Assembly (NCBI GenBank): GCA_903831805.1
Contig: CAIKZD010000017.1
Location: forward strand, 12,358-76,357
DNA length: 64,000 nt
Direction of reading: 5' to 3'
Origin: an uncultured bacterium
GTDB taxonomy: Bacteria > Patescibacteriota > Minisyncoccia > Moranbacterales > UBA2206
The notes beneath the pieces are model-generated. The model did no database searches, had not been told where the DNA came from, and saw nothing but the letters and a program-made list of their open reading frames with translations. The position numbers and the translations under genes are program-made. Each line of letters opens with the position of its first letter. The first letter of the stretch is position 1. This document shows, piece after piece, positions 61,173 to 62,221 of the stretch.

Positions 61173-61475
61173 AAGTCTGAACCACTGACCGTGCCTCGCC
61201 GGCAGGCGGGTTCGCACGTGATTATCCTGATTGCACTGATTTAAAAATACAAAATAGCAAAGTAATGTAGAGGTTTAATTTATTAAACCTTACCCGGAAA
61301 CATTTTCCGGAGACAGGCAGGTTTGATAAATCAAACCTCTACATAAAAAAGAAAGAAGTTCTTTGGAAAATTTTGGAGAAAAAAATAGAGCCCACATCAG
61401 TTATGATGCAGGCTCGGGTGAGGCAAAGAACGGGGAGGTTCAGGTCGGAGACGCTGAATTAAGCATGCTGTTGAG

Positions 61476-61805
61476 CTATACGAGTACGAAAGAATAAAAG
61501 TTGTAACGGCGGCTCGCATCATCCTCTTTTTGCAGATAGCCTCCTTGAACATCCGGGCTGGCGTCAGCGCTTAGTCCGTGTAAACCGGCTAGAAGTGTGG
61601 CTATGGAAGCGGCTGTCTTCTCGTCTTGTATTACCAATGAAGAACTGAAATTATTGAAATTGATTTCCCTCTCTTTCCATGGATAGGCCTTATGTTTAAA
61701 GCCTCCAGTGGGGTCATAACATACGAGAGTAGCATGTCCTTCAAGAAAAAATAACATTATCCTGGTTCCTTTTTTGAAAATACATCCGGGTTTTTCTCCT
61801 GACAT
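61476..61805 (-). CDS. hypothetical protein (109 aa) encoded antisense to the atp operon within the atpG-atpD insertion
   Basis: Own SD (AAGGAG) and consensus promoter; no domain recognised. Confidence 0.45.
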   Translation of the reverse strand: MSGEKPGCIFKKGTRIMLFFLEGHATLVCYDPTGGFKHKAYPWKEREINFNNFSSSLVIQDEKTAASIATLLAGLHGLSADASPDVQGGYLQKEDDASRRYNFYSFVLV

Positions 61806-61890
61806 GGTGGTCTCCTTGTTGTGCTTGTTGTAAAAGAATGTTAGAAAATGGTTTGTTGAAATGATTTCGTGGAAACACTAACAACCCCTC

Positions 61891-61920
61891 ATTATACTCC
61901 AAAACCACAAAAAAGTCAAG
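61891..61920 (-). promoter_or_regulatory. consensus sigma70 promoter (TTGACT-17-TATAAT) on the minus strand
   Basis: Minus strand reads TTGACTTTTTTGTGGTTTTGGAGTATAAT, driving the hypothetical gene 61476..61805. Confidence 0.55.
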
Positions 61921-62023
61921 CCCCGAAAAATGGCTTTGCCATCTCGGGGTGAAAGTTGAATTTTAACTGGTGAATATTAGCTTAGATAAAGCAATATTTA
62001 GTAGTTAGGGTTTAAAGAGAATT

Positions 62024-62166
62024 GTCATTCTGAGCGAAGCGAAGTCGAAGAATCTACTTTGTGTTTCCATTGGTTATGCTATAGATTGCAAAGCTAGTGG
62101 TAACGCAGGGCAGATCCTTCGACTGCGTTCCTCCGCTAGCGCGTCGTTACTTCGCTCAGGATGACA
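62024..62166. repeat. MITE-like element family 1 copy (between the minus-strand gene and atpD)
   Basis: TGTCATTCTGAGCGAAGCGAAGTCGAAGAATCTAC ... GCAGATCCTTCGACTGCG...CTTCGCTCAGGATGACA. Confidence 0.75.
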
Positions 62167-62221
62167 AAGTTGGTAAATAATCAAGTTAATAAATAATTTG
62201 TAAAAAGTTAAACTAAATTAT

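What the first reader, a model, noticed from the sequence alone, without database searches (positions are those of the whole stretch)
61173..62221. ATP synthase operon interrupted between atpG and atpD by a ~1-kb insertion carrying an opposite-strand gene with its own consensus promoter
atpG ends at 61172 and atpD starts at 62222, whereas in canonical operons these two genes abut. The spacer contains five elements. First, a compound structure at about 61255-61350 of two 24-bp inverted arms (TGTAGAGGTTTAATTTATTAAACC / GGTTTGATAAATCAAACCTCTACA), each internally palindromic, around a CCGGAAA-CAT-TTTCCGG hairpin. Second, a 109-aa ORF on the minus strand (61476-61805) with an AAGGAG SD. Third, a perfect TTGACT-17-TATAAT promoter (61891-61920, minus strand). 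Fourth, a hairpin (CCCCG...CGGGG). Fifth, a MITE copy (62024-62166). Transcription from this promoter runs antisense into atpG. The insertion must also be traversed, or re-initiated after, to express atpD and atpC.
Basis: seen in the sequence. Interest (0 to 1): 0.65.

Follow-up and report, generated by a model that had tools for sequence, protein, structure and literature searches.

The report
Antisense gene cassette inside ATP-synthase operon
The 1-kb gap between two ATP-synthase genes of this uncultured Moranbacteria genome is real and holds a small backwards-facing gene with its own promoter and terminator. That unit is one copy of a previously undescribed family of cassettes with a conserved frame and swappable cargo, which sit between housekeeping genes in this bacterial group.

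Summary
The spacer (61173-62221) is not a single insertion. It is a stack of an 80-bp palindrome, a ~660-bp antisense gene cassette (61356-62015) and a 146-bp MITE.

In Moranbacteria the atpG|atpD junction is an insertion hot spot. Gaps range from 22 to 2269 bp and hold unrelated genes in different genomes.

The cassette belongs to a family of at least 24 copies with a conserved frame. The frame has a left block with a terminator, a leader with a near-consensus promoter, and a ~60-nt stem-loop. The cargo ORFs are unrelated small genes, always antisense to the flanking genes, mostly in front of atpD, atpA or atpE.

The stem-loop shows covariation and strong sense-strand polarity (67 G·U against 8 A·C cells). 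It is therefore read as single-stranded nucleic acid of atp-sense polarity, most simply as atp mRNA.

The antisense unit has its own intrinsic terminator plus a second hairpin, so it should not run into atpG. No sense-strand terminator is predicted, so atpD-atpC can be expressed by read-through. A weak sense promoter shares the -10 region and may add to this.

ORF109 is a real, rare orphan protein with no known fold or family. All function is inferred; there are no expression data.

The parts
60219..61172 (+). atpG (F1 gamma subunit), 317 aa; upstream flank of the spacer
   Evidence: PF00231, E 1.1e-84; ORF table
61265..61344 (.). 80-bp compound palindrome. It has 26-nt arms, each internally palindrome, around a CCGGAAA-CAT-TTTCCGG hairpin. 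It is the only copy in the window. On the minus strand a U-rich tract follows it, so it could act as a back-up stop for antisense transcription.
   Evidence: -38.8 / -38.7 kcal/mol, z about -9 on both strands; no other copy found
61356..61371 (.). Conserved left-end block of the cassette frame, AAGTTCTTTGGAAAAT. It adjoins the A/T tract of the antisense terminator.
   Evidence: Found 300-510 nt left of the promoter element in WIN, L002, L193, L004, L007, L088, L174, L085 and L179
61378..61415 (-). Intrinsic terminator of the antisense unit: 12-bp stem (6 G-C pairs), 4-nt loop, then UAUUUUUUU
   Evidence: -19.3 kcal/mol, z -5.6
61476..61805 (-). ORF109, the cassette cargo. It is a soluble alpha+beta protein of a rare orphan family with the motifs CIFKKGTR...HG...GGW...FSFVLV.
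61806..61890 (-). 5' leader of the antisense mRNA, with Shine-Dalgarno AAGGAG at 61817..61812. The first ~30 nt after the -10 are conserved across cassette copies.
61891..61919 (-). Near-consensus sigma-70-type promoter TTGACT-17-TATAAT that drives the cargo ORF
   Evidence: 11/12 match; 10-12/12 in all 26 aligned copies
61870..61898 (+). Candidate weak sense promoter TGGAAA-17-TATACT. Its -10 overlaps the antisense -10, giving a bidirectional geometry with predicted start sites about 21 bp apart.
   Evidence: 9/12 match. TTGATT-16-TATACT or similar is present in about half of the copies. Geometry compared with bioRxiv 10.1101/2020.01.31.928960.
61921..61949 (.). Optional GC-rich hairpin between the promoter and the long stem-loop. 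A hairpin occupies this position in 6 of 26 copies.
   Evidence: -18 kcal/mol on both strands; present or absent in the alignment
61956..62015 (+). Conserved ~60-nt stem-loop of the cassette frame, read on the atp sense strand
   Evidence: -22.7 kcal/mol and z -7.1, against -8.5 kcal/mol on the minus strand. 26 pairs, 89% paired against 32-45% in slid controls. 14 pairs with compensatory changes; 0 of 500 shuffles reach this. G.U to A.C cells 67:8. The covariance model scores 68.9 bits on + and 30 on -; only one copy in the window. No Rfam family.
62022..62167 (.). MITE copy with 18-nt terminal inverted repeats (TTGTCATTCTGAGCGAAG); one of 7 copies in the window
   Evidence: -77.2 kcal/mol hairpin; 5-nt indel polymorphism at 62032 in L186
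62170..62197 (+). Second weak promoter-like site, TTGGTA-16-AATAAT, just upstream of atpD
   Evidence: 9/12 match; consensus match only
62222..63628 (+). atpD (F1 beta subunit), 468 aa. It has no Shine-Dalgarno. atpC starts at 63753.
   Evidence: PF00006, PF02874, PF22919

Best explanation
The atpG-atpD spacer is a stack of small elements that accumulated at a junction which is an insertion hot spot in Moranbacteria.

**The cassette.** The core is a ~660-bp antisense gene cassette at 61356-62015. In atp orientation it reads: a conserved left block plus an intrinsic terminator, a replaceable small ORF (here ORF109), a conserved leader plus a near-consensus promoter, an optional GC hairpin, and a conserved 60-nt stem-loop. 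An 80-bp palindrome lies to its left. A MITE later landed between its right end and atpD.

**Shown here.**
- The cassette is one of at least 24 copies of a family with this frame.
- The cargo ORFs are unrelated. One pair of genomes with 88% identical atpG 3' ends carries different cargo in the same frame.
- The cargo is always antisense to the neighbouring housekeeping genes.
- The stem-loop covaries and has sense-strand polarity.

**Inferred.**
- The cargo is transcribed from its own promoter and stops at its own terminator, so atpG is not covered by antisense RNA.
- RNA polymerase coming from the atp promoter reads through the spacer, because nothing terminator-like exists on the sense strand.
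- The sense-strand stem-loop then acts in the atp mRNA, as a processing site or a 5' stabiliser for the downstream cistron. This lets the cassette sit inside an essential operon without starving atpD-atpC.
- A weak sense promoter sharing the -10 may add re-initiation.
- Cargo is exchanged by recombination between the conserved frame ends.
- ORF109 itself is an accessory orphan protein of unknown biochemical function.
For: **Hot spot.**
- The atpG-atpD gap is 22-2269 bp in 24 relatives with at least 58% AtpG identity, and 2-164 bp in most other bacteria.
- Gap contents are unrelated: a DUF559 gene, a GIY-YIG gene, a NUDIX gene, and orphans.

**Family and frame.**
- nhmmer finds the promoter-hairpin module in the same orientation in many loci. 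It lies at atpG|atpD in WIN, L002, L006 (twice), L008, L009, L010, L016 and L023. It lies at atpH|atpA in L004, L007, L009, L013 and L016, and at atpB|atpE in L006.
- A pattern scan of metagenomes gave 9 strong full-length copies: 7 in atp operons, 1 at frr|rseP and 1 at dprA|topA.
- The left block is conserved.

**Cargo.**
- Of 24 ORFs, nearly all have a Shine-Dalgarno and about 15 have a transmembrane segment.
- Only WIN and L085 are homologous, at 46% identity.
- L002 and L193 have the same frame and different cargo.

**Promoter.** It matches 10-12 of 12 positions in 26 of 26 copies.

**Terminator.**

**Stem-loop.**

**Sense strand.** No sense-strand terminator is predicted in 60000-64000.

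**ORF109 is a real gene.**
- It aligns with 6 small homologues, with 15 invariant columns.
- The AlphaFold model has pLDDT 82.6.
Against: - There are no transcript data, so the promoter, the terminator, read-through and any role of the stem-loop are all predictions.
- The sense promoter is weak in the window (9/12). It is recognisable in only about half of the copies and is absent in L174, L010 and L023.
- The polarity and covariation of the stem-loop would also be produced by selection on a single-stranded DNA hairpin, for example a recombination site.
- The loci examined were mostly fetched through atp genes, so the atp association is partly biased.
- The core promoter pattern alone is generic. 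It hits 90 viral contigs, none of which carries the hairpin.
- No recombinase or mechanism for cargo exchange was identified.
- The function of ORF109 is unknown.
Confidence: 0.6

Rival explanations
1. A one-off ~1-kb foreign insertion broke the atp operon. Its strong promoter fires antisense into atpG, so atpD-atpC expression is compromised or needs a new promoter.
For: - The gap is derived relative to canonical operons.
- ORF109 has lower GC3 than the atp genes.
- The promoter is near-consensus.
Against: - The spacer is composite: a palindrome, a cassette and a MITE.
- The frame recurs in at least 24 loci.
- A strong terminator plus a second hairpin separate the ORF from atpG.
- No sense terminator is present.
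Confidence: 0.08
2. The stem-loop is not an RNA element. It is a single-stranded-DNA recombination site of a mobile gene cassette, working like an integron attC site or the subterminal hairpins of IS200/IS605-type elements. It would be read on the lagging-strand template, which would explain both the strand polarity and the fixed orientation relative to co-oriented housekeeping genes.
For: - The same frame is found at six different junctions with unrelated cargo.
- The orientation is strict.
- The hairpin has strand polarity: G.T to A.C cells 67:8.
- Conserved ends flank a variable interior.
Against: - The order of attC core sites is not met. The + strand reads GTTGAAT...ATTTAAT, which is reversed, and this is not conserved across copies (read from alignment A3).
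- The cassette carries its own promoter.
- The left-end hairpin is variable, unlike IS200/IS605 ends.
- No integrase or Y1 transposase was seen in the 64-kb window (by eye only).
- No full frame is present in the viral contigs scanned.
Confidence: 0.2
3. An ordinary split operon. In this lineage atpBEFHAG and atpDC are simply two transcription units, as in cyanobacteria. An unrelated small gene lies between them, and the conserved module is just the atpD (or atpA) promoter and 5' UTR.
For: - A sense promoter shares the -10.
- The module always lies just upstream of the next gene. The distance is 13-47 nt where no MITE intervenes, as in L010, L004 and L023.
- The gamma|beta junction is the natural break point in cyanobacterial atp operons (own knowledge).
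Against: - The best-conserved promoter is the antisense one (10-12/12 in all copies). The sense one is weak or absent in many copies.
- The same module also precedes rseP and topA.
- Many close relatives have 22-60-nt gaps with no room for a promoter.
Confidence: 0.15
4. The cassettes are type I toxin-antitoxin-like modules. A small, often membrane-spanning, toxic peptide would be kept in check by a structured RNA encoded next to it.
For: - About 15 of 24 cargo ORFs are small proteins with 1-4 predicted membrane segments.
- A structured RNA element is adjacent and divergent.
Against: - ORF109 and at least 8 other cargoes are soluble and 69-111 aa long.
- The predicted divergent transcripts do not overlap, and no complementarity between the stem-loop and the cargo leader was seen.
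- No PADLOC hit.
Confidence: 0.05

Closest known systems
Free-standing homing-endonuclease genes inserted between conserved genes ('intronless homing', for example the seg and mob genes of T-even phages); own knowledge
   Same: - Small self-contained genes sit in the short spacers between highly conserved essential genes.
- Their presence among close relatives is patchy.
- The same junction holds different inserts in different genomes. Here two relatives carry nuclease-type genes at atpG|atpD: DUF559 in L010 and GIY-YIG in L013.
   Different: - ORF109 and most cargoes show no nuclease domain.
- The cassettes share a conserved non-coding frame.
- They are strictly antisense.
- The hosts are bacteria, not phages.
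Integron gene cassettes and attC sites; own knowledge
   Same: - Short, mostly orphan ORFs of unrelated sequence.
- Each is tied to an imperfect palindrome of about 60 nt with strand polarity.
- Cargo is replaced within a conserved context.
   Different: - Each cassette carries its own promoter and terminator.
- The hairpin lies upstream of the cargo promoter.
- The R''/R' core-site order is not met.
- There are no arrays and no integrase nearby.
- Copies are single and lie inside housekeeping operons.
Promoter- and hairpin-bearing intergenic repeats (Neisseria Correia elements, enterobacterial REP/BIME and ERIC); own knowledge
   Same: - Small non-autonomous elements inside operons.
- They are co-transcribed, fold into stable RNA hairpins, can carry outward promoters and can alter the stability of neighbouring cistrons.
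   Different: - Those elements are non-coding, bounded by terminal inverted repeats, and present in tens to hundreds of copies per genome.
- This frame carries a protein gene, has no clear terminal repeats, and occurs once in the 64-kb window.
Bidirectional bacterial promoters with overlapping -10 elements (bioRxiv 10.1101/2020.01.31.928960; PMC12825309)
   Same: TATAAT on one strand overlaps TATACT on the other (61891-61898), and -35-like hexamers lie on both sides.
   Different: - The offset predicts start sites about 21 bp apart, not the modal 18 bp.
- The sense arm is weak and not conserved in all copies.
- Activity is untested.
Split atp operons of cyanobacteria and plastids (atp1, and atp2 = beta-epsilon); own knowledge
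   Same: The break lies exactly at the gamma|beta junction, leaving beta-epsilon as a potential separate unit.
   Different: Here the two parts stay adjacent and co-oriented, with a ~1-kb composite spacer. Many close relatives still have abutting genes.

Membership tests
F1Fo ATP synthase operon (atpBEFHAGDC order) | gamma and beta subunit genes identified by family profiles, in canonical order | tested here: met
   PF00231 for atpG; PF00006, PF02874 and PF22919 for atpD. The order atpB-E-F-H-A-G-D-C was read from the ORFs and from tblastn.
F1Fo ATP synthase operon (atpBEFHAGDC order) | atpG and atpD abut (tens of bases apart) | tested here: not met
   1049 bp in the window. Gaps are 2-160 bp in most other bacteria and in 10 of 24 close relatives.
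MITE (62022-62167) | terminal inverted repeats, small size, no coding capacity | tested here: met
   18-nt terminal repeats, 94% complementary; 146 bp. The whole element folds as one hairpin of -77 kcal/mol.
MITE (62022-62167) | multiple dispersed copies in the genome | tested here: met
   7 copies in 64 kb
MITE (62022-62167) | target-site duplication flanking the copies | tested here: inconclusive
   No consistent duplication is visible in the 7 aligned copies.
Sigma-70-type promoter (61919..61891, minus strand) | -35 and -10 hexamers with 17-nt spacing | tested here: met
   TTGACT-17-TATAAT, 11/12 match; conserved in 26 of 26 family copies
Sigma-70-type promoter (61919..61891, minus strand) | initiates transcription in vivo | not testable with these tools
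   No transcript data are available.
Intrinsic terminator (61415..61378, minus strand) | GC-rich stem-loop directly followed by a U-tract | tested here: met
   12-bp stem, 6 G-C pairs, then UAUUUUUUU; -19.3 kcal/mol
Integron cassette / attC | imperfect palindrome with R'' (RYYYAAC) at the 5' end and R' (GTTRRRY) at the 3' end on the cargo strand | tested here: not met
   The order is reversed and the motifs are not conserved across copies (read from alignment A3).
Integron cassette / attC | promoterless cargo, arrays next to an intI integrase | tested here: not met
   Each copy has its own promoter and terminator. Copies are single. No integrase-like ORF was noticed in the window (by eye only).
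IS200/IS605-derived palindrome-associated element | similar subterminal hairpins at both ends, recognised by one Y1 transposase | tested here: not met
   The right hairpin is conserved, but the left (terminator) hairpin differs in every copy.
IS200/IS605-derived palindrome-associated element | cognate TnpA encoded somewhere in the genome | not tested
   Only one 64-kb window was available.
Bidirectional promoter with overlapping -10 elements | -10 hexamers on opposite strands overlap, with -35-like hexamers on both sides | tested here: met
   ATTATA at 61891-61896 (minus-strand TATAAT) and TATACT at 61893-61898; sense arm 9/12. The sense arm is recognisable in about half of the copies.
Bidirectional promoter with overlapping -10 elements | divergent start sites 7-25 bp apart, observed experimentally | not testable with these tools
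   About 21 bp is predicted from the geometry. The definition is taken from bioRxiv 10.1101/2020.01.31.928960.
Type I toxin-antitoxin | small hydrophobic toxin peptide plus an overlapping or complementary antisense RNA | tested here: not met
   ORF109 is soluble, 109 aa, with no membrane segment. The predicted divergent transcripts do not overlap. No PADLOC hit.
Any described RNA family (Rfam 15) | covariance-model match at or near the gathering score | tested here: not met
   Only sub-threshold miRNA-model hits on the palindrome; nothing at 61956-62015.
Any described protein family or fold (ORF109) | profile or fold match | tested here: not met

The most novel reading that the evidence does not exclude
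The frame defines a new kind of mobile gene cassette in Patescibacteria. It is a promoter- and terminator-equipped slot whose small cargo genes are exchanged by a hairpin-directed, strand-specific recombination system that has not been identified. The cassette is built to live antisense inside essential operons, above all the ATP-synthase operon. There its sense-strand stem-loop also tunes expression of the subunits needed in several copies per complex (c, alpha, beta).
Probability: 0.2. Interest if true: 0.85.

Novelty: new variant of a known kind. Interest (0 to 1): 0.62.

Why it matters
Patescibacteria have tiny genomes and are thought to carry little regulatory or mobile DNA. Their essential ATP-synthase operon nevertheless repeatedly hosts self-contained antisense genes.

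A conserved frame with replaceable small orphan ORFs would be a route by which these bacteria sample new small, often membrane, proteins. The frame is a promoter, a terminator and a covarying sense-strand stem-loop.

The stem-loop is a candidate new RNA element that controls expression inside an operon. The cassettes lie in front of atpE, atpA and atpD, which gives a testable idea for how subunit stoichiometry is set.

Practically, the frame is a searchable marker for finding such cassettes and their cargo across metagenomes.

Tried and rejected
- **Rfam scan of 60900-62500.** Only sub-threshold miRNA-model hits on the palindrome.
- **tRNA and tmRNA scan.** None in the window.
- **Large repetitive proteins in the representative search (P0006-P0014).** They are heterogeneous and were judged spurious.
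- **atpD as the gene next to the L085/L179 cassette.** I first assumed this. Reading the sequence showed it is topA, and I corrected it.
- **One alignment of both hairpin subfamilies (A2).** It was out of register by one base and gave a poor consensus. Each subfamily was therefore analysed separately.
- **attC-like core sites.** Considered and rejected, because the order is wrong and the motifs are not conserved.
- **A small conserved sense ORF after the GGAGG-like part of the hairpin's 3' arm.** Considered and rejected, because the reading frame is not conserved and runs into MITEs.
- **Viral contigs.** The promoter core alone matches 90 contigs, none with the hairpin or leader. No ORF109 relative was found.
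- **Literature.** A search for Moranbacteria, ATP synthase and intergenic found nothing. The two papers that mention both Patescibacteria and MITEs were irrelevant.
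Full report
**1.

The window carries an F-type ATP-synthase operon: atpB 56499-57251, atpE 57386-57613, atpF 57699-58184, atpH 58186-58587, atpA 58631-60139, atpG 60219-61172, atpD 62222-63628, and atpC from 63753. All other atp spacers are 1-134 bp. The atpG-atpD spacer is 1049 bp.

- The compound palindrome has arms at 61265-61290 and 61319-61344. 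It folds at -38.8 kcal/mol with z about -9.
- The 109-codon minus-strand ORF lies at 61805..61476, with AAGGAG 6 nt before its ATG.
- TTGACT-17-TATAAT lies at 61919..61891.
- The GC hairpin lies at 61921-61949.
- The MITE lies at 62022-62167. It has 18-nt terminal repeats, and six further copies are in the window.

Two independent metagenome contigs carry the same spacer at 99.4% identity, so it is not an assembly artefact.

- A minus-strand intrinsic terminator at 61415..61388.
- A 60-nt stem-loop at 61956-62015 that folds well only on the plus strand: -22.7 against -8.5 kcal/mol.

**2. The organism and the junction**

The closest AtpG relatives are Candidatus Moranbacteria (Patescibacteria) genomes.

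Among 24 relatives with at least 58% AtpG identity, the atpG-atpD gap runs from 22 to 2269 bp. Ten are under 70 bp and fourteen are over 250 bp. In most other bacteria fetched it is 2-164 bp.

The long gaps are not homologous as wholes:
- The closest relative, L001 (86% AtpG identity), has 1073 bp holding an unrelated 282-aa sense-strand orphan.
- L010 holds a DUF559 gene, L013 a GIY-YIG gene and L012 a NUDIX gene.

The short arrangement is therefore the likely ancestral one, and the junction is an insertion hot spot.

**3. A cassette family**

A ~125-nt block that includes the antisense promoter is shared between the window and several relatives.

A profile of this block finds it in many loci, always in the same orientation relative to the atp genes:
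- At atpG|atpD in the window, L002, L006 (twice), L008, L009, L010, L016 and L023.
- At atpH|atpA in L004, L007, L009, L013 and L016.
- At atpB|atpE in L006.

An exact-pattern scan of metagenome contigs for the promoter core returned 120 stretches. Nine of them carry a strong full-length block. Seven lie in atp operons, one between frr and rseP-mreB (L174) and one between dprA and topA (L179).

To the left of the block, every copy has a Shine-Dalgarno-led minus-strand ORF of 54-173 aa. After it comes a hairpin with a T-tract. In the window-type subfamily a further conserved block, AAGTTCTTT(G/T)GAAAAT, follows.

The unit is thus a cassette with conserved ends and a variable interior. Only two of 24 cargo ORFs are homologous, the window's and L085's, at 46% identity. 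About 15 have predicted membrane segments.

L002 and L193 are 88% identical in DNA at the 3' end of atpG and share both frame ends. Their cargo regions have no similarity and encode different proteins. That shows replacement of cargo, not divergence.

**4. The promoter**

The antisense promoter matches the consensus at 10-12 of 12 positions in all 26 aligned copies.

On the sense strand a TATACT hexamer overlaps the antisense TATAAT. A -35-like hexamer lies 16-18 nt upstream: TGGAAA in the window (9/12), and TTGATT or TTGAAA in about half of the copies.

This is the geometry of bidirectional promoters with overlapping -10 elements. The offset predicts start sites about 21 bp apart rather than the modal 18 bp.

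The sense arm is weak and not universal, so I treat it as a possible contributor only. The promoter core alone is not specific to this family: it also matches 90 viral contigs that lack the rest of the frame.

**5. The stem-loop**

Each of 18 intact copies folds on its own into a hairpin of about 25 bp on the atp-sense strand, at -12 to -34 kcal/mol. The sense strand is the more stable one in 17 of the 18.

Results for the two subfamilies:

| Measure | Window-type (A3, 8 sequences, ungapped) | Second subfamily (A4, 8 sequences) |
|---|---|---|
| Consensus pairs | 26 | 23 |
| Cells paired | 89% (32-45% when partners are slid by 1-3 columns) | not counted |
| Pairs with changes on both sides | 14 (1-6 in slid controls; 0 of 500 shuffles reach this) | 2 |
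| G·U cells on the sense strand | 28 | 39 |
| A·C cells (G·U on the other strand) | 5 | 3 |

- The combined count is 67 G·U against 8 A·C cells (binomial p about 1e-12).
- A covariance model scores the plus strand about 40 bits above the minus strand in every copy. It finds a single copy in the 64-kb window.
- No Rfam family matches.

The structure is therefore selected in a single-stranded molecule of atp-sense polarity. The simplest such molecule is the atp mRNA. A single-stranded DNA intermediate is the alternative.

**6. How the locus most likely works**

*Shown.* The parts, their conservation, the orientation rule and the cargo replacement are shown by the results above.

*Inferred.*
- The cargo mRNA starts near 61884 and carries a leader of about 79 nt and ORF109.
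- It ends at the terminator 60 nt after the stop codon.
- The 80-bp palindrome is followed on that strand by a U-rich tract and acts as a second barrier. atpG lies 205 nt beyond the terminator and should not be covered.
- On the sense strand no terminator-like site is predicted between atpG and atpD. Polymerase from the atp promoter can therefore read through the palindrome, the antisense of ORF109, the stem-loop and the MITE.
- I propose that the stem-loop works in this RNA as a processing site or as a 5' stabiliser for the distal atpD-atpC segment. This would make the cassette tolerable inside an essential operon.
- The cassettes lie in front of atpE, atpA and atpD, which encode the subunits present in more than one copy per complex. 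That fits a positive effect on the downstream cistron. The sample of independent junctions is small.
- The MITE and the palindrome are later, independent arrivals. MITEs of the same type also sit just after the stem-loop in L009, L002 and L135.

**7. ORF109**

ORF109 has an identical or near-identical copy in the same population. Six small homologues (94-144 aa, 33-48% identity) share invariant CIFKKGTR, HG, GGW and FSFVL motifs.

Where the homologues sit:
- P0003 sits in the same cassette frame, between dprA and topA.
- P0002 (L081) and P0005 (L087) lie outside any frame, in other contexts.

The AlphaFold model is confident (pLDDT 82.6, pTM 0.76) and shows an alpha+beta fold. Nothing significant matches it by fold or by profile.

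GC3 is 0.39, against 0.54-0.62 for the atp genes. ORF109 is a real, rare accessory gene of unknown biochemical function.

**8. Comparison with known systems, and verdict**

The locus resembles several known systems:
- free-standing selfish genes between conserved genes, in its placement and patchiness;
- integron cassettes, in its orphan cargo tied to a polar hairpin;
- Correia and REP-type elements, in its co-transcribed hairpins and portable promoters;
- bidirectional promoters;
- the cyanobacterial gamma|beta operon split.

It fails the defining tests of attC sites, IS200/IS605-type ends, type I toxin-antitoxin systems, and any Rfam or Pfam family (see the membership table). I file it as a new variant of known kinds.

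The claim of antisense transcription into atpG is not supported.

The main uncertainties are the complete lack of expression data, the RNA-versus-DNA reading of the stem-loop, the unknown mechanism of cargo exchange, and sampling that is partly biased towards atp loci.

Noticed in passing
window 62022-62167, 55010-55149, 46881-47039 (-), 35221-35366 (-), 25192-25353, ~13040-13170, ~26006-26119: A MITE family of about 140-160 bp has seven copies in 64 kb. Its terminal repeats are TTGTCATTCTGAGCGAAG, and it contains an inner inverted repeat GTCGAAGAATCT...AGATCCTTCGAC. Most of the long intergenic gaps of the window contain one. No clear target-site duplication was seen. L186 shows a 5-nt indel in the terminal repeat at 62032.
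   Followed up: partly
window 63629-63752 (atpD-atpC spacer): The 124-bp spacer is an AT-rich palindrome built from CAATAATCAATTT / AATTGAAAAT-type repeats. It is another structured intergenic element inside the operon.
   Followed up: no
window 62168-62221; L009 7890-7972; L179 1040-1120 (minus strand); L005 and L023 upstream of atpD: atpD and atpA have no Shine-Dalgarno in this whole clade, although the cassette cargo ORFs do. Several relatives have AAGCTAA-type repeats (aagctaagaagctaaagcctaaaaagctaa) directly before the start codons of atpD and topA.
   Followed up: no
L010 3067-3444; L013 7107-7403; L012 6984-7397; L001 7145-7993: Other genomes carry different small genes at the same atpG|atpD junction. 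They are a DUF559 endonuclease-like gene, a GIY-YIG nuclease gene, a NUDIX hydrolase gene, and a 282-aa orphan on the sense strand.
   Followed up: partly
L085 262-552, L086 215-505, L179 1280-1489: The cassette frame also sits between dprA and topA in another lineage. In L085 and L086 its cargo is an ORF109 homologue (P0003). In L179 the same frame and junction hold an unrelated 69-aa cargo.
   Followed up: partly
L084 1-3481 (same population as the window, beyond atpC): NuoB-like (Oxidored_q6), antiporter-like (Proton_antipo_M) and NuoH-like (NADHdh) genes follow atpC. This is a membrane-complex gene set that is unusual for Patescibacteria.
   Followed up: no
window 61176-61245: The first ~70 nt after atpG (tctgaaccactga...cctgattgcactgatt) share 30-nt blocks, in either orientation, with atp intergenic DNA of L003, L004, L009 and L016. 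This is probably yet another small dispersed repeat.
   Followed up: no
window 45806-47062 (-): The longest ORF call here starts inside the MITE at 46881-47039. Its N-terminus reads ...VICHSERSVAKSKNL...LRMTKR. The real gene start is probably further downstream, which is an annotation trap caused by the MITE.
   Followed up: no
window 813, 17285, 26195 (+); 8844, 15512, 18256, 30808 (-): The window holds ten promoter matches of at least 11/12 to TTGACA-N16-18-TATAAT, against about 2 in shuffles. These are seven of the ten, excluding the cassette promoter itself and the sites at 14503 (+) and 45124 (-). This genome evidently uses near-consensus sigma-70-type promoters.
   Followed up: no
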